A stretch of 38,580 bases of DNA from an uncultured Candidatus Saccharibacteria bacterium. Its GTDB lineage: Bacteria; Patescibacteriota; Minisyncoccia; UBA6257; UBA9933. The position numbers and the translations under genes are program-made. The notes under the pieces were generated by a model. The model was not told the DNA's origin. It was given only the letters and a program-made list of their open reading frames with translations, and did no database searches. Shown piece by piece: positions 496 to 29,691 of this stretch; position 1 is the stretch's first letter; each line of letters starts with the position of its first letter. The stretch lies in the NCBI GenBank assembly GCA_964367055.1, contig CAYIWD010000003.1, positions 1 to 38,580 on the forward strand, read 5' to 3'.

Positions 496-2028
496 TTATT
501 TAACGTAATATTTTTTCTTCATTTCCTCCTCAACACCGCTTTCAAACTCGTCTTTTCTTTCGCCCGCTTTTTTTGCTAATTTTTTAAGCTCGGCGTCTGG
601 TAATATTCCTAAATCTTTAATCTTTAATTTTAAACCTTCAATATTATTTTTTTCCGGCTCTTCAATTACTTCGTCTAGTAAAATCGCCAAAATCTGCCCC
701 ACTTTTGGCCCAGCTGGAATACTTAAAATTCTCATCACATCATTACCGTTGACATTTAGCATTTTTGGCGAGAGCGGATCGTGTTTGACCTTCTCAATCA
801 TAAAAAGTAGGTGTCGATTTTTATAAGGCACCGCCTTGGGCGTGCCTGAGCCGATTCTATCCGCTTCGCGAAGTTTTAATAGATCATCTACATTTTCCGG
901 CCCCACCCGCGCCAAAAACCTTCTCACCCCAGCTTCTGAAACTTCGCCCACATTGTAATAAAACATATGATATCTGACAAGATGGCTAACTTTTTCTATC
1001 GTTTCTTTGGGGAAGCATAATATACCAAGCGCTCGAGCGGCCATTTTAGCGCTAAGTATTTCGTGTCCGTGAAAAGTCGCGTTATAACCTTCGCCTTGTT
1101 TGGTTTTGGGCTTGCCTAAATCATGTAATAAAGAAGCCAGGCGAATTTCCAGCGAATAATTTTGCTTGGCGGCATAATCAAGAGATCTGATATGGTGTTC
1201 AAATACTTCGTATATATGATGAAGATTTTGGGCGGCGCCGATGCCTTGTTCCAATTCGGGGAGAATATATTTTAATAGTCCTAATTTTTCTAAAAGCAAG
1301 ATGCCGCGGCTTGCTCCGGACGCCATAATTGTTTTTATAAATTCGTCGCGGATTCTTTCTTTGGCAATAATTTCTAAGAGCCCAGCGTGTTTTTCTATAG
1401 CTTCACTGGTTTTATTTTCAATCGTAAAATTAAGTTCAACCGCAAATCGCACCGCTCGCAACATTCGCAAAGCATCTTCAGTAAATCGTTTTTCTGGTTC
1501 ACCAACCGCGCGGATAAGTTTGCTTTCTAAATCTTTCTGGCCGTTAAACGAGTCAATTAATTCGTATTCATTCGTATCATTAGTATGCATTCGTATATTG
1601 GTATCACATTTTAATGCGATAGCATTAATCGTGAAATCGCGCCTAGCTAAATCTTCTTCTATTGTTCTGGCAAATTTGATTTCGTCCGGATGGCGTTTGT
1701 CGGTATATTTTCCTTCCAAGCGAAAAGTGGTAATTTCAACAATTTTTAGCGACAGTTCTTCGTTTTCTGTTTTTACGCCAACCGTGCCAAATTGGTTCTC
1801 GTAAACACTATCTGGAAAAATCTCTTGAATTTCTTCTGGCCTTGCGTTTGTCGCAATGTCCCAATCTTTGGGTCCGACCCGTCGGTCGGACTCCGACTGC
1901 GGTCGGAGTTCTTTTAGTAAAAGATCGCGAACGCAACCACCCACCAGATATGGCTGAAAATTAGCTTTAATCAATTGTTTTGCAATATCAATAATCTCTT
2001 TTGGGATTTTTAAATTCTTGATTTCCAT
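496..2028 (-). CDS. cca: CCA-adding tRNA nucleotidyltransferase with HD domain
   Basis: Motifs LVGGCVRD...PKDWDIAT, EITTFR, DLARRDFTINA, RFTEDALRMLRAVRF and LLHDLGK (HD). Confidence 0.93.
   Translation of the reverse strand: MEIKNLKIPKEIIDIAKQLIKANFQPYLVGGCVRDLLLKELRPQSESDRRVGPKDWDIATNARPEEIQEIFPDSVYENQFGTVGVKTENEELSLKIVEITTFRLEGKYTDKRHPDEIKFARTIEEDLARRDFTINAIALKCDTNIRMHTNDTNEYELIDSFNGQKDLESKLIRAVGEPEKRFTEDALRMLRAVRFAVELNFTIENKTSEAIEKHAGLLEIIAKERIRDEFIKTIMASGASRGILLLEKLGLLKYILPELEQGIGAAQNLHHIYEVFEHHIRSLDYAAKQNYSLEIRLASLLHDLGKPKTKQGEGYNATFHGHEILSAKMAARALGILCFPKETIEKVSHLVRYHMFYYNVGEVSEAGVRRFLARVGPENVDDLLKLREADRIGSGTPKAVPYKNRHLLFMIEKVKHDPLSPKMLNVNGNDVMRILSIPAGPKVGQILAILLDEVIEEPEKNNIEGLKLKIKDLGILPDAELKKLAKKAGERKDEFESGVEEEMKKKYYVK
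1561..1605. repeat. 45-bp ATACGAAT-type degenerate tandem repeat, in frame in cca
   Basis: TTCGTATTCATTCGTATCATTAGTATGCATTCGTATATTGGTATC is nearly identical to intergenic 4239-4284 and encodes DTNIRMHTNDTNEYE. Confidence 0.85.
1873..1908. repeat. double-hairpin element (36-bp variant), in frame in cca
   Basis: TCCGAC-CCGTCG-GTCGGA-CTCCGAC-TGCG-GTCGGAG, with the same stems as the copies at 2195, 27456 and 27901. Confidence 0.92.
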
Positions 2029-2091
2029 TGATTTTAATTATATATTATAAATTGGCAATTGGAAAATTAGGAATTAGAAATTTCAAAGTAT

Positions 2092-2163
2092 GCCCTTGTA
2101 GTGAAATGGATATCATCACTGCCTTCGAAGCAGTTGTTCCCCGTTCGAATCGGGGCAGGGGCA
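2092..2163 (+). tRNA. tRNA-Arg(TCG)
   Basis: Acceptor GCCCTTG/CAGGGGC, anticodon arm ACTGC-CTTCGAA-GCAGT, T arm CCCCG-TTCGAAT-CGGGG. Confidence 0.95.
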
Positions 2164-2174
2164 CAAAAATAAGA

Positions 2175-2233
2175 CCGCCCATAGCTCAATTTGGTCCGAC
2201 CGTAGTCGGACTCCGACAAGGGTCGGAGTAGAG
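2175..2233 (+). pseudogene. 5' tRNA fragment with 34-bp double hairpin (2195-2228) in the D-loop
   Basis: CCGCCCA-TA-GCTC-AATTTGG-[element]-TAGAG(C) gives the acceptor 5' strand plus D arm. It runs straight into tRNA-Lys. Confidence 0.85.
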
Positions 2234-2304
2234 CCCCCCATAACTTAACGGCAAAGTAGCTGCCTCTTAAGCAGTAAATCTAGGTTCGATTCCTAGTGGG
2301 GGGA
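2234..2304 (+). tRNA. tRNA-Lys(CTT)
   Basis: Acceptor CCCCCCA/TGGGGGG, anticodon arm GCTGC-CTCTTAA-GCAGT, T arm CTAGG-TTCGATT-CCTAG. Confidence 0.92.
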
Positions 2305-2326
2305 CATTAAAAAATCAAAAATCAAA

Positions 2327-2653
2327 ATGAGTCAATCTAATAATGTAAAAATCGTTTTATTTGTGCCTGAATCGCACGCGGACGTGGTTCGCGAAGTAAT
2401 CGGCAGTGCCGGCGCGGGAAAAATCGGCAACTATACTTATTGCAGTTTTTCTTCAAAGGGAATTGGACGATTTAAGCCAGAACAAGGCAGCCATCCAGCG
2501 ATTGGCGAGGTTGGTAAATTAGAGTCGGTGAAAGAGGAACGGATAGAATTTGTGTGCAGCCGCGACATCCTAAGGGACGTTATTGCGGCAATTAAGAAGG
2601 TACACCCTTACGAAGAAGTCGCGTTAGACATATATCCATTGGAAGAAATCTAG
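2327..2653 (+). CDS. stand-alone PII/CutA-like domain of the YqfO/NIF3 type
   Basis: KIVLFVP...AGAGKIGNYTYCSF...G.F.P and the terminal HPYEEVALD signature. Confidence 0.85.
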   Translation: MSQSNNVKIVLFVPESHADVVREVIGSAGAGKIGNYTYCSFSSKGIGRFKPEQGSHPAIGEVGKLESVKEERIEFVCSRDILRDVIAAIKKVHPYEEVALDIYPLEEI

Positions 2654-2704
2654 TACACGACTTTACTGATTTTATATTTCGGCTATAATTATTTAGCTTA
2701 ATAC

Positions 2705-2778
2705 GCGGGTATCGTATATCGGTATTACATCTGGTTGCCAATCAGATAAGAGGGGTTCGACTCCCCTTACCCGCTCCA
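2705..2778 (+). tRNA. tRNA-Gly(GCC), CCA encoded
   Basis: Acceptor GCGGGTA/TACCCGC, U73, CCA. Anticodon arm TCTGG-TTGCCAA-TCAGA. Confidence 0.95.
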
Positions 2779-2809
2779 AGAAACTAATTACTACTTTATT
2801 CGTTTTCTT

Positions 2810-3349
2810 ATGATAGATGGCGATAAAAATTTAATTGAAAAAGCCATTAAGGGTGAGGCTTCGGCTTTTGGCCTTCTTTACGATAAATATCAACCGCAGA
2901 TTTATCGGTTTATTTATCTTAAAGTAGGCCTTCGTGAGGAAGCCGAGGACCTCACCCACCAAGTTTTTTTAAAAAGTTGGCAGAATATAGAAAATTTTAA
3001 TTTTCAGGGCTTTCCGTTTTCCAGCTGGCTTTATTCAGTGGCTAGGCACCAAGTGATTGATTTTTACCGAACAAAAAAAACAAGCATTGTTTTGGAAGAA
3101 ATAGTGGAATTAAAAACCAATGATCCCTCAGCCGAAGAAGCGCTGGATAGCGAAGTAATCCTTGAAAAAGTTAAAAAAGCCATCGCTCAACTTGGCGATG
3201 AACAGCAGGATGTGATTATTTTGAGATTTATTGAGGATTTTTCTCTTCAAGAGGTGGCTTCAATTTTAGATAAAACAGAAGGCGCGGTTAAATTATTGCA
3301 GCATCGAGGCATTAAAAACTTAAGAAAAATATTAAATTCTAAGCCATAA
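2810..3349 (+). CDS. ECF-family RNA polymerase sigma factor
   Basis: Region 2 (AFGLLYDKY, AEDLTHQVFLK, FSSWLYSVARHQVIDFYR) and region 4 (QQDVIILRF, SLQEVASIL, GAVK). Confidence 0.93.
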   Translation: MIDGDKNLIEKAIKGEASAFGLLYDKYQPQIYRFIYLKVGLREEAEDLTHQVFLKSWQNIENFNFQGFPFSSWLYSVARHQVIDFYRTKKTSIVLEEIVELKTNDPSAEEALDSEVILEKVKKAIAQLGDEQQDVIILRFIEDFSLQEVASILDKTEGAVKLLQHRGIKNLRKILNSKP

Positions 3350-19278: not shown

Positions 19279-19725
19279 ATGAAAGATATTACTTTCAACC
19301 GTAGAGCTTTATATGATTATGAGATTTTAGAAATACTTGAGGCGGGTATTGAATTGAAAGGATTTGAAGTCAAATCCATTAAAACCGGCAGGATAAATCT
19401 GGCGGGTGCTTATGTTATTATCCGCGATAATCAGGCCTGGCTTTTAAATTCCGACATTCCCGCTTATCAGCCGAAAAATACGCCAGATGATTATAATTCC
19501 AAAAGAACCCGGAGGCTTTTGATTAAAAAATCGGAAATCAAAAACTTAATAGGCCGTGTTCAGGAAAAAGGCTTGACTTTGTTGCCTTTAAAAGTATATA
19601 CTAAGGGTAAGTCTGGTAGGATAAAGATAGAAATCGGCTTAGGAAAAAGCCGTAAAAAAGCCGACAAGAGAGAATTGATAAAAAAAAGGGAAGTTGAAAG
19701 GGAAATAAAAAGAATGGGAATGTAA
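19279..19725 (+). CDS. smpB: SsrA-binding protein
   Basis: NRRA..DY, EAGIEL.GFEVKSI, R.RRLL and G.....DKR motifs. Adjacent to tmRNA. Confidence 0.97.
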   Translation: MKDITFNRRALYDYEILEILEAGIELKGFEVKSIKTGRINLAGAYVIIRDNQAWLLNSDIPAYQPKNTPDDYNSKRTRRLLIKKSEIKNLIGRVQEKGLTLLPLKVYTKGKSGRIKIEIGLGKSRKKADKRELIKKREVEREIKRMGM

Positions 19726-20076
19726 TGTTTCGATGGCAGCACTTTTATAAAATTGCAAGTTGAGGACGATTCGTTACCTCATTAATCACCGAATCAAAAT
19801 CATAAGTGTCAACAAAAATTTGACTCCTGCTTTCGCTTTTGCCTAAGCGGCATCCCTTATTAATCGCTCAAGTTGATAAGAAGGGTGTTATACTTTGAGC
19901 TTACTCGTTGGGGTTTTACCAATTTTAACGAGGAAAATTTCAGGTAGAGAATTTGGAGGGTTTTGCTAAATTTTAACTTCTAAATTCTTCCGCCAGTTGG
20001 CGGATTCTAATTTAGCTAAACTTGTAGAGATTTTATAAATTTATTGTCAGACGCGGGTTCAACCCCGCCATTTCCA
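19716..20076 (+). ncRNA. ssrA: tmRNA, tag (A)VNKNLTPAFAFA* at 19808-19846
   Basis: Acceptor GGGAATG/CATTTCC-A with G3:U70, T arm GCGGG-TTCAAC-CCCGC, and a tag ORF after ATAAGT ending in AFAFA. Directly follows smpB. Confidence 0.92.
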
Positions 20077-20094
20077 CTAAAAAATTTAAATTAT

Positions 20095-27330: not shown

Positions 27331-27368
27331 TGCGTGTGGATGGAATCGAACCATCGGCCTCCATTTTA
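27331..27368 (-). pseudogene. 3' half of a tRNA-Ile-like gene
   Basis: TAAAATGGAGGCC GATGG-TTCGATT-CCATC CACACGCA matches the 3' halves of the neighbouring copies. Confidence 0.8.
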
Positions 27369-27401
27369 CCCGCCTGCCAAAGCCGATCCGAAATTTTGGT
27401 G

Positions 27402-27502
27402 TGGGTGTGGAAGGGATCGAACCTTCGGCCTCCATTTTATCAGAATGGCGTTCTACTCCGACCGTGGTCGGAGTCCGACAAAGGTCGGACCACTGAGCTA
27501 CG
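27402..27502 (-). pseudogene. tRNA-Ile(GAT) copy lacking the 5' acceptor strand, with the 34-bp double hairpin (27456-27489) in the D-loop
   Basis: GTAGCTCAGTGG-[element]-TAGAACG CCATT-CTGATAA-AATGG ... TTCGATC ... CACACCCA. Confidence 0.88.
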
Positions 27503-27520
27503 TTTTTAAATTTGACAATT

Positions 27521-27880
27521 CTATTCTATATTTAATTTAGTGGGCACACCAAGGATCGAACTTGGGACCTCCATTTTATCAGAATGGCGTTCTACCACTG
27601 AACTATGTGCCCTATGATTCCACGGAAATGTTTTATCTATAATTACTTTTTCTAAAATATCCTTTCTTTTATAACTTTTCAAGCGGTATTCTGACTTTTT
27701 AGCTTCGGTTAAATCTCCGCATAAAATAAAACACTTTAATTCTAATGGACTAATATTCTTCGTTGCCTTAACCAGTCCTTTATTATGTTGTGAGAATCGT
27801 CTTTCTATATTATCAGAACTTCCAATATAATAATAACCATTTTTTAAACTTTTTAAGATATAGACACCAGCCTTTTTCAT
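27521..27880 (-). CDS. small GIY-YIG nuclease (YhbQ/UPF0213/SLX1-like)
   Basis: GVYIL...YYIGSS.NIERR..QHN.G...T....P...EA...E..LK. The last ~30 codons read through tRNA-Ile. Confidence 0.9.
   Translation of the reverse strand: MKKAGVYILKSLKNGYYYIGSSDNIERRFSQHNKGLVKATKNISPLELKCFILCGDLTEAKKSEYRLKSYKRKDILEKVIIDKTFPWNHRAHSSVVERHSDKMEVPSSILGVPTKLNIE
27541..27612 (-). tRNA. tRNA-Ile(GAT), intact
   Basis: Acceptor GGGCACA/TGTGCCC-A, anticodon arm CCATT-CTGATAA-AATGG, T arm CCAAG-TTCGATC-CTTGG. Confidence 0.93.
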
Positions 27881-27952
27881 TTTATCAGGACAGCGTTTTG
27901 CTCCGACCGTTGTCGGAGTCCGACAAGGGTCGGGTCACTGAGCCACACGCCC
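27878..27952 (-). pseudogene. 5' half of tRNA-Ile(GAT) with the double hairpin (27901-27934) in the D-loop
   Basis: GGGCGTG TG GCTC AGTGA-[element]-CAAAACG CTGTC-CTGATAA-AATG. The final ATG is the GIY-YIG start codon. Confidence 0.85.
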
Positions 27953-28815: not shown

Positions 28816-29691
28816 ATGAATAAACCAGAAATCAAATCAATTTATGCCAAAGAGCCGGGCTTCCCTTCGCTTCTGAAAGAAATTCAAAATCCACCTTCAA
28901 AAATTTTTATTTTGGGAAAATTACCAAGCGATCCGCCGGCTGGCGGACCTAAAATCGCCGTTGTCGGCACGCGAAGAGCTACTCTTCAAGGTCGTTTGCT
29001 TGCCAAGGAAATAGCCAAAAAATTAGCTGAAAAAGGGATAATAATTGTTAGTGGCTTGGCAATGGGTATTGATACTTCAGCTCACGAAGGCGCGCTTTTA
29101 GCTAATGGGCAAACCATCGGAGTTTTAGCTTGCGGTTTGGATAATATTTATCCTCGGCAAAACGAGAATTTAGCTAAGCATATTATTGAAAATGACGGGG
29201 CGATTATTTCGGAATATCCGGTTGGCACAGAAGCCTTTAAAAATCATTTTTTAGAACGCAATAGAATTATCAGCGGCTTATGTATCGCTACTATTATTAT
29301 AGAAGCGCCGCAGGAATCTGGAGCTTTGGTAACGGCTCGCTTAGCCGCCGAGCAAGGCCGGGAAGTTTTTGTTGTGCCGGGCGGAATTAACAATCCCAAT
29401 TATTATGGTTCTCATAAATTAATTAGAGACGGCGCGAGGTTGGTCGGTTCAATTGATGATATTTTTGAGGATTTAGGTATTGATATCCATCAGCCTAAAT
29501 TAGCGTTTGAAAAAATTAAAGACAAAAATCAATCAGCTATTTTTCAAACTATTCAAGAGGCGGGGGAGGCGTTAAATATTGACAAAATTATTGAACTGAC
29601 TAAACTTGAACCGCAAATAGTCAATCAATCTCTGGCGCTTCTAATTATTCAAGGCATAATAAAAGAGACAGAGAAGGGATATACAATATAA
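28816..29691 (+). CDS. dprA: DNA-processing protein DprA
   Basis: IAVVGTR, IVSGLAMGID..AH, F.ERNRIISG and SGALVTA..A.EQGREVF motifs. Confidence 0.97.
   Translation: MNKPEIKSIYAKEPGFPSLLKEIQNPPSKIFILGKLPSDPPAGGPKIAVVGTRRATLQGRLLAKEIAKKLAEKGIIIVSGLAMGIDTSAHEGALLANGQTIGVLACGLDNIYPRQNENLAKHIIENDGAIISEYPVGTEAFKNHFLERNRIISGLCIATIIIEAPQESGALVTARLAAEQGREVFVVPGGINNPNYYGSHKLIRDGARLVGSIDDIFEDLGIDIHQPKLAFEKIKDKNQSAIFQTIQEAGEALNIDKIIELTKLEPQIVNQSLALLIIQGIIKETEKGYTI
28932..28947. repeat. TCCGCC-N4-GGCGGA hairpin in dprA
   Basis: TCCGCC-GGCT-GGCGGA, encoding PPAGG. Confidence 0.75.

What the first reader, a model, noticed from the sequence alone, without database searches (positions are those of the whole stretch)
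2175..2304. 34-bp double hairpin at one D-loop position in different tRNA genes, with an intact tRNA nearby
Seen: copies at 2195-2228, 27456-27489 and 27901-27934 all lie at the D-loop GG-TAGA position in the same orientation (the 27901 flanks are degenerate). Stems are fixed and the 4-nt loops vary freely: CGTA/AAGG, CTTT/CACG and CCTT/AACG. A possible GT duplication flanks the two best copies. Every interrupted copy is incomplete. Here the fragment is fused with zero spacer to a complete tRNA-Lys of similar 5' sequence (CCGCCCATAGCTCAA vs CCCCCCATAACTTAA). Inference: a site-preferring non-autonomous element whose insertion is coupled to duplication or replacement of the tRNA. I know no named element with this behaviour.
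Basis: partly seen in the sequence, partly recalled or inferred. Interest (0 to 1): 0.85.

Follow-up and report, generated by a model that had tools for sequence, protein, structure and literature searches.

The report
Mobile double hairpin marking replaced tRNA genes
The 34-base double hairpin is a small mobile DNA repeat of ultra-small (CPR) bacteria that sits in the dead remains of tRNA genes which were replaced by imported copies, often next to a tiny nuclease gene, a kind of selfish tRNA-gene cassette that I could not find described in print.

Summary
The hairpin pair (HP: TCCGAC-loop-GTCGGA-C-TCCGAC-loop-GTCGGAG) lies at 2195-2228, 27456-27489 and 27901-27934, each between GG and TAGA of a truncated tRNA D-loop. 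A fourth copy lies in frame in the CCA-enzyme gene (1873-1908).

HP is a dispersed element that inserts cleanly, without target duplication, at WRG^TAR. I found 54 exact copies in other CPR genomes: 8 in tRNA D-loops, 2 elsewhere in tRNA pieces, and the rest intergenic or in ORFs.

At 2175-2233 the interrupted piece is the resident tRNA-Lys(CTT) 5' end, matching family relatives at the same syntenic spot. The abutting intact tRNA-Lys is a type native to other families, so the gene was replaced.

At 27331-27952 two HP copies flank a 90-aa GIY-YIG nuclease gene plus an intact tRNA-Ile, among three tRNA-Ile wrecks. In an HP-blind sample, 9 of 9 homologous nuclease genes sat between a hairpin-bearing tRNA 5' piece and an intact tRNA.

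My best reading is a hairpin repeat partnered with an Ssn-like nuclease. The cleavage and recombination steps are inferred, not shown.

The scan has flagged this cassette before on other DNA (at least 26 genomes). I found no paper describing it.

The parts
2175..2194 (+). 5' end (acceptor strand, D-stem and D-loop up to GG; 20 nt) of the resident tRNA-Lys(CTT), now a dead remnant
   Evidence: It matches positions 1-20 of the tRNA-Lys(CTT) found 2-20 nt after tRNA-Arg(TCG) in family relatives. Its closest match in this genome is the 5' end of tRNA-Lys(TTT).
2195..2228 (+). HP copy 1: 34-nt double hairpin, loops CGTA / AAGG
   Evidence: It folds at -13.3 kcal/mol, z -4.9.
2229..2233 (+). Continuation of the resident tRNA-Lys remnant (TAGAG, the 3' side of the D-arm). 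The break lies 5-6 nt after HP.
   Evidence: The C-run at the junction varies by one C between samples.
2234..2305 (+). Intact tRNA-Lys(CTT) of a foreign type (acceptor CCCCCCA, D-arm ACTT/AAGT), abutting the remnant
   Evidence: ARAGORN and Rfam at 67.4 bits. None of the 15 family relatives' tRNA-Lys(CTT) genes has this type. The best matches, about 85-94% identical, are in other families of the class.
1873..1908 (+). HP copy with 6- and 4-nt loops, inserted in frame (12 codons, LRPQSESDRRVG) in the CCA-adding enzyme gene (496-2028, minus strand)
   Evidence: Of 19 family relatives, 12 have no insert at this site and 7 have other short inserts there.
27881..27952 (-). Wreck a: tRNA-Ile(GAT) 5' piece running from the acceptor strand to the anticodon loop. 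It contains HP copy 3 (27901-27934, first stem C instead of T, loops CCTT / AACG). It ends where the nuclease ORF starts.
   Evidence: The first 18 nt match the relatives' alleles L121 and L134. The outer tRNA of relative G042 has the same acceptor strand, the same anticodon stem, and HP at the same site.
27611..27880 (-). Mini GIY-YIG nuclease gene (about 90 aa). The open frame runs on to 27521 through the tRNA, after a 1-nt difference from the contig-5 copy.
   Evidence: Pfam PF01541, E 7e-15. It is 75-76% identical to the contig-5 copy. Structure matches are weak: 1mk0 (I-TevI catalytic domain) and 1zg2 (UPF0213), both E about 1e-3.
27540..27612 (-). Intact tRNA-Ile(GAT), the working copy inside the cassette
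   Evidence: ARAGORN and Rfam at 71.7 bits.
27402..27500 (-). Wreck e: tRNA-Ile(GAT) copy lacking the 5' acceptor strand, with HP copy 2 (27456-27489, loops CTTT / CACG) in the D-loop
   Evidence: Rfam gives a partial hit of 26.3 bits, below the cut-off. Its T-arm and acceptor match the tRNA-Ile(TAT) on contig 5 and relative L125.
27369..27401 (-). Spacer ending in the right arm (..GGCTTTGGCAGGCGGG) of a second, inverted-repeat-bounded element that sits in anticodon loops
   Evidence: The same 32-nt spacer follows the inner tRNA-Ile in the same-genus relative G050. The same arm lies next to tRNA-Thr on contig 16.
27331..27368 (-). Wreck f: 3' part (anticodon loop to 3' end) of a tRNA-Ile(GAT) like the one that is intact in the same-genus relative
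   Evidence: It matches the 3' part of L117 (G050): the same T-arm and the same acceptor CACACGC.

Best explanation
HP is the short hairpin-pair repeat of a family of miniature selfish cassettes in CPR/Patescibacteria. The only protein gene of such a cassette is a roughly 90-aa single-domain GIY-YIG nuclease, comparable to the Ssn nucleases with their hairpin repeats.

On its own, HP behaves like a gene-less mobile insert. It enters DNA cleanly, with no target duplication, at WRG^TAR. The best match to that target is the GG^TAGA of tRNA D-loops.

In tRNA genes HP is seen only in copies that are already dispensable or dead. Beside each such copy stands a working tRNA that arrived with, or was kept by, the cassette (hairpin - nuclease gene - tRNA, sometimes followed by a second hairpin).

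In this window one cassette of that form occupies the tRNA-Ile locus, with two HP copies and three wrecks. A nuclease-less version occupies the tRNA-Lys(CTT) locus. There the resident gene survives only as a 25-nt 5' stub with HP, and a foreign-type tRNA-Lys(CTT) has taken its place.

Inferred, not shown: the nuclease binds the extruded hairpin in single-stranded DNA and cuts a few bases away. The break is then mended by recombination with incoming or neighbouring tRNA-bearing DNA, with conserved tRNA segments serving as homology. This would leave breakpoints 5-20 nt from HP.
For: (1) HP is a mobile repeat.
- 54 exact copies occur in named CPR genome records of several lineages.
- It is rare per lineage: 1 of 50 family relatives and 1 of 300 class genomes.
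- The stems are invariant and the loops are free.

(2) Insertion is clean.
- The CCA-enzyme gene has 12 extra codons where 12 of 19 relatives have none.
- L031 and L058 show interrupted and intact tRNA copies that are identical except for HP.

(3) The target consensus is WRG^TAR, from 56 copies.

(4) HP is linked to the nuclease.
- In the window, HP lies 20 nt upstream of the ORF, and again downstream after the tRNA.
- Elsewhere, 7 of 54 copies lie within 100 nt of a homologous ORF, all in one orientation.
- Nuclease homologues found without reference to HP (L073, L074, L146, L147) carry TCCGAC-type hairpins within about 20 nt upstream of the start codon.
- 2 of 5 genomes that I knew only from solo HP loci encode a close homologue (E 1e-29 or better), against 9 of 300 at E <= 1e-15 in the class sample.

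(5) The cassette architecture recurs. In 9 of 9 HP-blind homologue loci the ORF is followed at once by an intact tRNA of 6 different identities. It is preceded by a 5' piece of a tRNA carrying GC-rich hairpin(s).

(6) Replacement is supported by synteny.
- The order CCA gene - tRNA-Arg - tRNA-Lys(CTT) - tRNA-Gly is kept in the family.
- The Arg-Lys spacer is at most 20 nt in 9 of 19 relatives. In the window it is 69 nt, made up of 10 nt plus the stub with HP.
- The intact tRNA-Lys type occurs in other families, not in 15 of 15 family relatives.
- At the Ile locus, 0 of 28 relatives carry the nuclease ORF.

(7) Ssn nucleases of 94 aa cut single-stranded DNA beside hairpin repeats that often flank their gene (PMC11893778, Results part 1 and 'find' passages read).
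Against: - No biochemistry exists for this protein. Membership of the Ssn subfamily (cd10448) could not be tested.
- HP copy number is low: 7 double copies in this genome, against hundreds for Neisseria NTS.
- Most HP copies are solo, and 47 of 54 elsewhere have no nuclease gene within 500 nt.
- One genome with 3 HP loci gave no homologue at E <= 1e-8.
- Hairpin type does not track the nuclease strictly. L056 has CCCCGAC/TCCCGAC-type hairpins upstream and canonical HP downstream.
- The tRNA-Lys locus has no nuclease gene, so its link to the cassette rests on analogy.
- The genome also encodes three Y1 (RAYT-like) transposase homologues that could in principle move hairpins.
- The breakpoint distances from HP were read by eye on about a dozen loci.
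Confidence: 0.6

Rival explanations
1. Neutral-sink reading. HP is an independent REP/MITE-like repeat moved by some other enzyme, for example the Y1 RAYT-like transposases, or by host replication. It accumulates in tRNA wrecks only because these are among the few neutral stretches in a compact genome that hold its preferred target. The nearby nuclease gene would then be coincidental.
For: 44 of 54 copies elsewhere are not in tRNA pieces, and 47 of 54 have no GIY-YIG gene within 500 nt. The sequence preference WRG^TAR is enough to pick out D-loops. Three Y1_Tnp homologues are present in the genome. Insertion without target duplication is also typical of Y1-driven elements (recalled).
Against: The three Y1 genes are flanked by their own, unrelated palindromes, not by HP. 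HP or HP-like hairpins lie within about 20 nt upstream of the start codon of nuclease homologues that were found without using HP. In this genome 5 of 7 double copies are in tRNA pieces. By my rough estimate, not a computed count, D-loop targets should make up no more than a few per cent of matching neutral sites.
Confidence: 0.2
2. Junction-structure reading. HP does not move by itself. It is the terminal structure of the cassette, or is copied at its junctions during repair. Solo copies would then be what is left after the nuclease gene and tRNA were lost.
For: HP sits at a short, recurring distance from the ORF: 10-11 nt in L031, L037, L058, L073, L074 and L147, and 20 nt in the window and on contig 5. 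The window cassette is bracketed by two HP copies in direct orientation. A collapsed palindrome beginning with ATGAAA lies in the anticodon loop of L026.
Against: The sequence between HP and the ORF is the host tRNA's own continuation, not a constant cassette end (L058, L031 and L076). HP occupies different positions in the tRNA piece (7^8, 10^11, 19^20). Copies in the CCA-enzyme gene and in gyrB are exact 34-36-nt inserts with no trace of an ORF.
Confidence: 0.12
3. RNA-level reading. HP is an intervening sequence (intron- or IVS-like) in functional tRNAs, tolerated in the variable part of the D-loop or cut out of the transcript.
For: The insert lies at D-loop position 20, where tRNAs tolerate extra bases (textbook knowledge). 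CPR rRNA genes are known to carry short ORF-less inserts at stem-loop tips (PMC11270868, 'find' passages read).
Against: All 4 D-loop copies in this genome and all 8 elsewhere are in truncated or multiply disrupted tRNAs, each with an intact copy beside it. The tRNA model found no full-length tRNA with such an insert. No Rfam family matches HP. HP also lies in protein genes and spacers.
Confidence: 0.03
4. Assembly artefact. The tandem fragments would be chimeric joins of strain variants or repeats.
For: The source is a metagenome-assembled genome in 34 contigs, and repeats sit at contig ends.
Against: Independent Logan contigs from two samples bridge 2162-2734 and 1755-2279. The same architecture recurs in dozens of unrelated assemblies.
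Confidence: 0.02

Closest known systems
Ssn nucleases with NTS/SRM hairpin repeats (SsnA of Neisseria meningitidis; Chenal et al. 2025, PMC11893778)
   Same: Both have a single-domain GIY-YIG protein of about 90-94 aa. Both have a short GC-rich hairpin repeat next to the gene, sometimes on both sides, with further copies scattered in the genome. The paper itself notes the IS-like hairpin-gene-hairpin layout.
   Different: Here the repeat is a hairpin pair with free loops, and it is present in a handful of copies rather than hundreds. The gene is welded to a tRNA gene and to tRNA wrecks. The words tRNA and Patescibacteria each occur 0 times in the paper's main text. Subfamily membership and single-stranded-DNA cutting were not tested here.
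Free-standing GIY-YIG homing endonucleases, especially phage T4 SegB in the tRNA gene cluster (PMC2330249; search listing and start of abstract seen)
   Same: Both involve a GIY-YIG nuclease gene lodged among tRNA genes. The neighbouring tRNA region is inherited together with the nuclease gene.
   Different: Seg proteins carry a DNA-binding domain and cut double-stranded DNA of the rival allele (recalled). The protein here is the bare catalytic domain: TIGR01453 matches only residues 3-41, below its cut-off. The occupied locus also keeps an intact copy of any tRNA target.
REP/BIME (REPIN) repeats with RAYT Y1 transposases, and IS200/IS605 (recalled; cited within PMC11893778)
   Same: All are short palindromic repeats that are recognised as hairpins, insert without target duplication, and depend on an enzyme supplied in trans.
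   Different: HP does not flank the three Y1 genes of this genome. It also enters coding and RNA genes, so it is not only extragenic.
Rickettsia palindromic elements (RPE)
   Same: Both are palindromic mini-inserts tolerated in frame inside protein genes and inside RNA genes.
   Different: RPEs are about 100-150 bp and have no known partner nuclease. Sequence relatedness to HP was not tested. RPEs show no tRNA-replacement pattern.
Integrative elements at tRNA genes that restore the gene and leave a displaced fragment; disrupted and split tRNA genes of Archaea (PMC3293823, PMC4390854; search listing and abstract starts only)
   Same: In both cases the incoming DNA carries tRNA sequence, so a working gene remains and a dead piece of the old gene is left beside it.
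   Different: No integrase is present: the Arg-Lys interval is 69 nt, and the only ORF between the Ile pieces is the nuclease. The displaced pieces here are mostly 5' ends. The breakpoints lie in tRNA loops next to hairpins, not at a fixed 3' att core.

Membership tests
Ssn / SRM system (Chenal et al. 2025) | Single-domain GIY-YIG protein of about 90-100 aa with no extra domain | tested here: met
   PF01541 covers residues 4-73 of a core of about 90 aa. The tail beyond that is read-through of the tRNA gene.
Ssn / SRM system (Chenal et al. 2025) | Protein belongs to CDD subfamily cd10448 | not testable with these tools
   No CDD library and no SsnA sequence were on hand. The nearest solved chains are 1mk0 and 1zg2, at E about 1e-3 only.
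Ssn / SRM system (Chenal et al. 2025) | Hairpin repeat flanking the nuclease gene, often on both sides | tested here: met
   HP lies at 27901-27934 (20 nt upstream of the ATG) and at 27456-27489 (downstream, after the tRNA).
Ssn / SRM system (Chenal et al. 2025) | Repeat present in many (tens to hundreds of) copies per genome | tested here: not met
   This 575-kb genome has 7 double copies and about 6 further single hairpins of this stem.
Ssn / SRM system (Chenal et al. 2025) | Site-specific cleavage of single-stranded DNA next to the hairpin | not testable with these tools
   This needs an enzyme assay.
REP / RAYT (REPIN) and IS200/IS605 | The repeats flank a Y1 (HUH) transposase gene in the same genome | tested here: not met
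   Three PF01797 hits were found. Their flanks hold other palindromes, not HP.
REP / RAYT (REPIN) and IS200/IS605 | Insertion without target-site duplication | tested here: met
   Three filled/empty pairs show this: the CCA-enzyme gene, L031 and L058.
Free-standing GIY-YIG homing endonucleases (Seg/I-TevI type) | Catalytic domain joined to a DNA-binding domain (protein of about 200 aa or more) | tested here: not met
   The core is 90 aa. TIGR01453 matches only model positions 1-39 of 215, at 30 bits against a cut-off of 56.
Free-standing GIY-YIG homing endonucleases (Seg/I-TevI type) | Cuts the gene-less allele, while the occupied allele is protected | tested here: inconclusive
   The occupied loci keep an intact tRNA with an unbroken D-loop target. 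This argues against the tRNA being the double-stranded target, but no assay was done.
tRNA introns (bacterial group I; archaeal BHB introns) | Complete exons on both sides that join into a full tRNA, with a recognisable intron fold or BHB motif | tested here: not met
   All HP-bearing tRNA copies are truncated. No Rfam intron family was hit in the window.
Integrase-driven islands at tRNA genes | Integrase gene and a fixed 3' att repeat of the tRNA | tested here: not met
   There is no room for an integrase at 2165-2233. The only ORF among the Ile pieces is the nuclease. The displaced pieces are 5' ends or have varied breakpoints.

The most novel reading that the evidence does not exclude
HP together with its mini GIY-YIG nuclease would be a recombinase-free mobile system that uses conserved tRNA segments as portable homology arms. 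The nuclease would cut single-stranded DNA beside the hairpin. Repair would then install a foreign tRNA gene, with or without the nuclease gene, in place of the resident one. This would amount to a 'tRNA gene drive' that continually swaps tRNA alleles between distant CPR lineages. It would account for the extreme diversity of acceptor stems seen at one syntenic tRNA-Ile locus within a single family. It would also account for the inner and outer tRNA alleles being swapped between sister genomes.
Probability: 0.3. Interest if true: 0.85.

Novelty: new variant of a known kind. Interest (0 to 1): 0.66.

Why it matters
tRNA genes are usually treated as stable, vertically inherited landmarks. Here they are repeatedly broken and replaced by imported copies, in organisms with the smallest known bacterial genomes.

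If the hairpin and nuclease pair drives this, it would be a new way for selfish DNA to persist. It disables an essential gene only where a replacement is supplied.

It would also extend the newly described single-strand-specific Ssn-type nucleases to a concrete genomic role. That makes their natural function testable with a defined substrate: the HP in a D-loop context.

There are practical consequences too.
- The wrecks confuse tRNA annotation and completeness estimates for CPR genomes.
- HP read in frame adds about 12 residues to proteins such as the CCA-adding enzyme and GyrB.

Tried and rejected
- RNA evidence: no RNA holder was listed for the window stretch, so expression, processing and excision could not be examined.
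- Rfam: no family matches HP at gathering thresholds in the window. Only tRNAs and a tmRNA were hit.
- Full-length tRNA with HP: none was found in this genome with the tRNA model. The 105-nt weak hit on contig 16 is a tRNA-like piece inside another inverted-repeat element, not an HP-bearing tRNA.
- Genome-by-genome association of HP with the nuclease clade in one sample: not feasible. Exact HP occurs in only 1 of 300 class genomes, and that genome was not among the 9 with a nuclease hit at E <= 1e-15.
-, a search for a neighbouring gene, returned nothing in relatives because my threshold (1e-40) was too strict. I repeated the question with the gene on the other side.
- GT target duplication: rejected.
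- A fixed inserted length in coding copies: rejected. ORF-embedded copies measure 34, 35 or 36 nt, so frame preservation is not explained by one length.
- Strict one-to-one matching of hairpin type and nuclease clade: rejected after L056.
- Literature: searches found no paper on hairpin-interrupted tRNA fragments or GIY-YIG-tRNA cassettes in CPR. Supplements were closed. Those of PMC11893778, which list the genomes and repeats, could bear on whether CPR homologues were catalogued there.
- The tRNA-Ile region was not checked against reads, because only one read-laying run was allowed and I spent it on 1500-3000.

Full report
**What is in the window**

The window is contig 3 of a 575-kb genome in 34 contigs, 37% G+C and 92% complete. 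Its size and its named look-alikes place it among CPR/Patescibacteria.

The hairpin pair, called HP here, has the form TCCGAC-loop-GTCGGA-C-TCCGAC-loop-GTCGGAG. It lies at 2195-2228, 27456-27489 and 27901-27934. In the sense of the tRNA-like sequence around it, each copy sits between the GG and the TAGA of a D-loop.

- The single hairpin occurs 7 times in the window against 0.01 expected. None of 100 shuffles reached 7.
- The copies fold as two hairpins, or as one long hairpin for the third copy, whose loops are complementary. The z-scores run from -4 to -4.9.
- None of the interrupted tRNAs is complete.

**The rest of the genome**

Further double copies lie in three places.

- Contig 5: HP sits in the D-loop of a tRNA 5' piece. 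A GIY-YIG ORF follows, starting in the anticodon loop, and then an intact tRNA-Ile(TAT).
- Contig 21: HP sits at the T-loop of a 3' piece, downstream of another GIY-YIG ORF and an intact tRNA-Asn.
- Contig 10: the context was not resolved.

Thus 5 of the 7 double copies are in tRNA pieces. The genome has 7 mini GIY-YIG genes, and three of them are welded to tRNA genes in this way.

**The tRNA-Ile locus of the window**

Read on the minus strand, the order is as follows.

1. Wreck a (27952-27881): a 5' piece up to the anticodon loop, containing HP.
2. The nuclease ORF, starting at 27880. Pfam GIY-YIG matches at E 7e-15.
3. The intact tRNA-Ile(GAT) (27612-27540).
4. A 39-nt spacer.
5. Wreck e (27500-27402): it lacks the 5' acceptor strand and carries HP in the D-loop.
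6. A 33-nt spacer.
7. Wreck f (27368-27331): a 3' part beginning in the anticodon loop.

In family relatives the syntenic locus holds a tRNA-Ile(GAT) in 25 of 28 loci examined. None of the 28 has the nuclease ORF.

Wreck f matches the gene that is intact in the same-genus relative. The spacer before wreck f is the same as the one behind that relative's gene.

Relative G042 has an outer tRNA-Ile with the same acceptor strand and anticodon stem as wreck a, and HP at the same site. That outer gene is further split by three more palindromic inserts. One of them carries a whole intact tRNA-Ile in the anticodon loop.

**The focal site, 2175-2305**

The gene order CCA-enzyme gene, tRNA-Arg(TCG), tRNA-Lys(CTT), tRNA-Gly(GCC) is kept across the family.

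- In 9 of 19 relatives, tRNA-Lys starts 2-20 nt after tRNA-Arg.
- In the window the interval is 69 nt: 10 nt, then a 25-nt stub interrupted by HP.
- The stub matches the 5' end of the relatives' tRNA-Lys(CTT). Two relatives have the same acceptor strand.
- The intact tRNA-Lys(CTT) that abuts the stub has a different acceptor strand and an ACTT/AAGT D-arm. None of the 15 family sequences has these.
- Its best matches, about 85-94% identical, are in genomes of other families of the class. There it stands in the ordinary Arg-Lys arrangement.

So the resident gene was replaced by a foreign type, and only its first 25 nt, carrying HP, survive.

Contigs assembled independently from two samples bridge this junction. 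One shows an extra C in the C-run at 2233. Those samples belong to one study and may include the source.

**HP as an element**

An exact-pattern scan of one genome per species found 54 copies. All were in CPR-type records, apart from two with other bin labels. By contrast, only 1 of 50 family relatives and 1 of 300 class genomes have it. A patchy distribution with invariant stems argues for horizontal movement.

The flanks of 56 copies give the consensus W-R-G^T-A-R.

Three filled/empty comparisons show a clean insertion without duplication.

- In the CCA-enzyme gene, 12 in-frame codons stand between a Glu and a Pro codon. At that point 12 of 19 relatives have nothing, and 7 have other short inserts, among them a different palindrome read as PPAGG.
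- In L031 and L058, the interrupted and intact tRNA copies are otherwise identical.

The 54 copies elsewhere fall into these contexts.

| Context | Copies of 54 |
|---|---|
| D-loop GG^ position of a tRNA piece | 8 |
| Position 10^11 of a tRNA piece | 2 |
| Inside an ORF of at least 150 aa, read through in frame (for example gyrB at one site in two genomes) | 11 |
| Spacers | the rest |

HP is also oriented with respect to neighbouring genes. In 17 of 59 copies, an ORF of at least 70 aa starts 3-25 nt after the GGAG end. Only 3 of 59 show this at the other end. The GGAG end may therefore serve as a ribosome-binding site.

**Link to the nuclease**

Seven of the 54 copies lie within 100 nt of a homologue of the window's nuclease, always in the same orientation.

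I also searched for the protein without reference to HP. It was found in 9 of 300 class genomes at E <= 1e-15. In all 9 loci the ORF is followed at once by an intact tRNA (Phe, Ala x4, Arg, Asp, Ser, Val). It is preceded by a 5' piece of a tRNA, matching the adjacent one in most loci, that carries GC-rich hairpins.

- The closest homologues carry TCCGAC-type hairpins.
- More distant ones carry related stems, such as TCCGAT.., or TCCCGATGGACATCGGGA standing in place of the anticodon arm.

Two of five genomes that I knew only from solo HP loci encode close homologues. In each, an HP variant lies 10-17 nt before the start codon and a tRNA-Gly lies behind the gene.

The match of hairpin type to nuclease is not strict. 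L056 has a CCCCGAC/TCCCGAC pair upstream and canonical HP downstream.

The genome's three Y1 transposase homologues are flanked by unrelated palindromes.

**Mechanism**

The following is shown.

- HP inserts cleanly and site-selectively.
- HP-bearing tRNA copies are always dead.
- A working copy always stands beside them.
- At the Lys locus that working copy is foreign.
- The nuclease gene and the hairpin travel together.

The following is inferred, by analogy with SsnA. SsnA is a 94-aa GIY-YIG enzyme that binds a hairpin repeat and cuts only single-stranded DNA a few bases away, and its gene is often bracketed by the repeat (PMC11893778).

- The nuclease recognises extruded HP and nicks nearby.
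- Repair by recombination, using conserved tRNA segments as homology, installs the block of nuclease gene and tRNA, or the tRNA alone.

In keeping with this, the tRNA-derived sequence stops 5-9 nt after HP in the window's Lys stub and in L031, L037, L042, L044, L058 and L073. It stops 16-20 nt after HP, in the anticodon loop, in wreck a, the contig-5 copy, L026, L027 and G042. Downstream wrecks begin 6-13 nt before HP. I read these distances by eye.

The order of events remains open: HP may come first, or the cassette may.

**Rivals**

- A neutral-sink reading, in which HP is moved by something else and merely survives in wrecks, is not excluded (0.2).
- A junction-structure reading is weakened because host tRNA sequence continues between HP and the ORF (0.12).
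- An RNA-intron reading fails on the incompleteness of every interrupted copy (0.03).
- An assembly-artefact reading fails on the bridging contigs at the focal site and on the recurrence across assemblies (0.02). The Ile region itself was not checked against reads.

**Novelty**

Five literature searches and passages of three papers gave no description of hairpin-interrupted tRNA remnants or nuclease-tRNA cassettes in CPR. Work on CPR rRNA inserts mentions GIY-YIG ORFs in non-intron inserts, and short ORF-less inserts at stem-loop tips (PMC11270868). These may be relatives.

Earlier notes of this scan describe the same cassette in at least 26 other genomes. In this genome they describe two other mini GIY-YIG elements. 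Those notes gave me the lead to the Ssn paper. The architecture, the target consensus, the clean insertion and the replacement were tested independently here.

I class it as a new variant of a known kind, namely a hairpin repeat with an Ssn-like nuclease and homing-like inheritance of a tRNA gene.

Noticed in passing
window 28932-28947; window 19989-20004; contigs 9 and 16 of the genome: A second palindrome family (TCCGCC.GCTGGCGGA type) sits in frame in protein genes, where it reads PPAGG (a DprA-like ORF in the window). It also sits inside the tmRNA gene (tmRNA 19716-20079 by Rfam). The same palindrome occupies the HP site of the CCA-enzyme gene in two relatives (L089, L097).
   Followed up: partly
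L117, L124, L125, L012 (syntenic tRNA-Ile loci of relatives); window 27369-27401; contig 16 near tRNA-Thr(CGT): tRNA within tRNA: an intact inner tRNA, flanked by inverted repeats (CCCGCC.GCC.. / ..GGC.GGCGGG), sits in the anticodon loop of an outer wrecked tRNA. Two sister genomes (G044, G045) have the inner and outer acceptor alleles swapped. Clean single genes exist in L134 and L128. Acceptor stems at this one locus differ widely within the family.
   Followed up: partly
genome contigs 7, 10, 13, 18, 20, 28 and the ends of contigs 7, 16, 19, 21, 30: A GC-rich repeat of about 150 nt with a central CCCGACC..GGTCGGG hairpin (the same CCGAC core as HP) recurs and breaks the assembly at contig ends.
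   Followed up: no
window about 1579-1620 (CCA-enzyme gene, minus strand): A second short peptide-coding insert (TNIRMHTNDTNE) lies in the same enzyme. It resembles AT-rich palindromic repeats seen on contig 9.
   Followed up: no
genome contigs 16, 1 and 14: Three RAYT-like Y1 transposase homologues (PF01797) are present, each flanked by its own short palindrome that is unrelated to HP.
   Followed up: partly
window 27521-27612: The nuclease ORF lacks the stop codon that its contig-5 homologue has inside the first 10 nt of the tRNA. A 1-nt difference lets it read through the whole tRNA-Ile gene, giving a 119-aa frame.
   Followed up: partly
L019, L020, L041, L053, L055, L062, L070 and others: HP copies lie 9-17 nt upstream of the start codons of host genes, with the GGAG end proximal (17 of 59 against 3 of 59 at the other end). 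This hints that HP is tolerated or co-opted as a ribosome-binding hairpin.
   Followed up: partly
window 2233/2234: The C-run at the stub/tRNA junction is polymorphic: one sample's contig has an extra C.
   Followed up: no
genome contig 16: 10309-10413: A weak tRNA-like hit (22.9 bits) lies inside an element bounded by 16-nt inverted repeats. It is not an HP-bearing tRNA.
   Followed up: no
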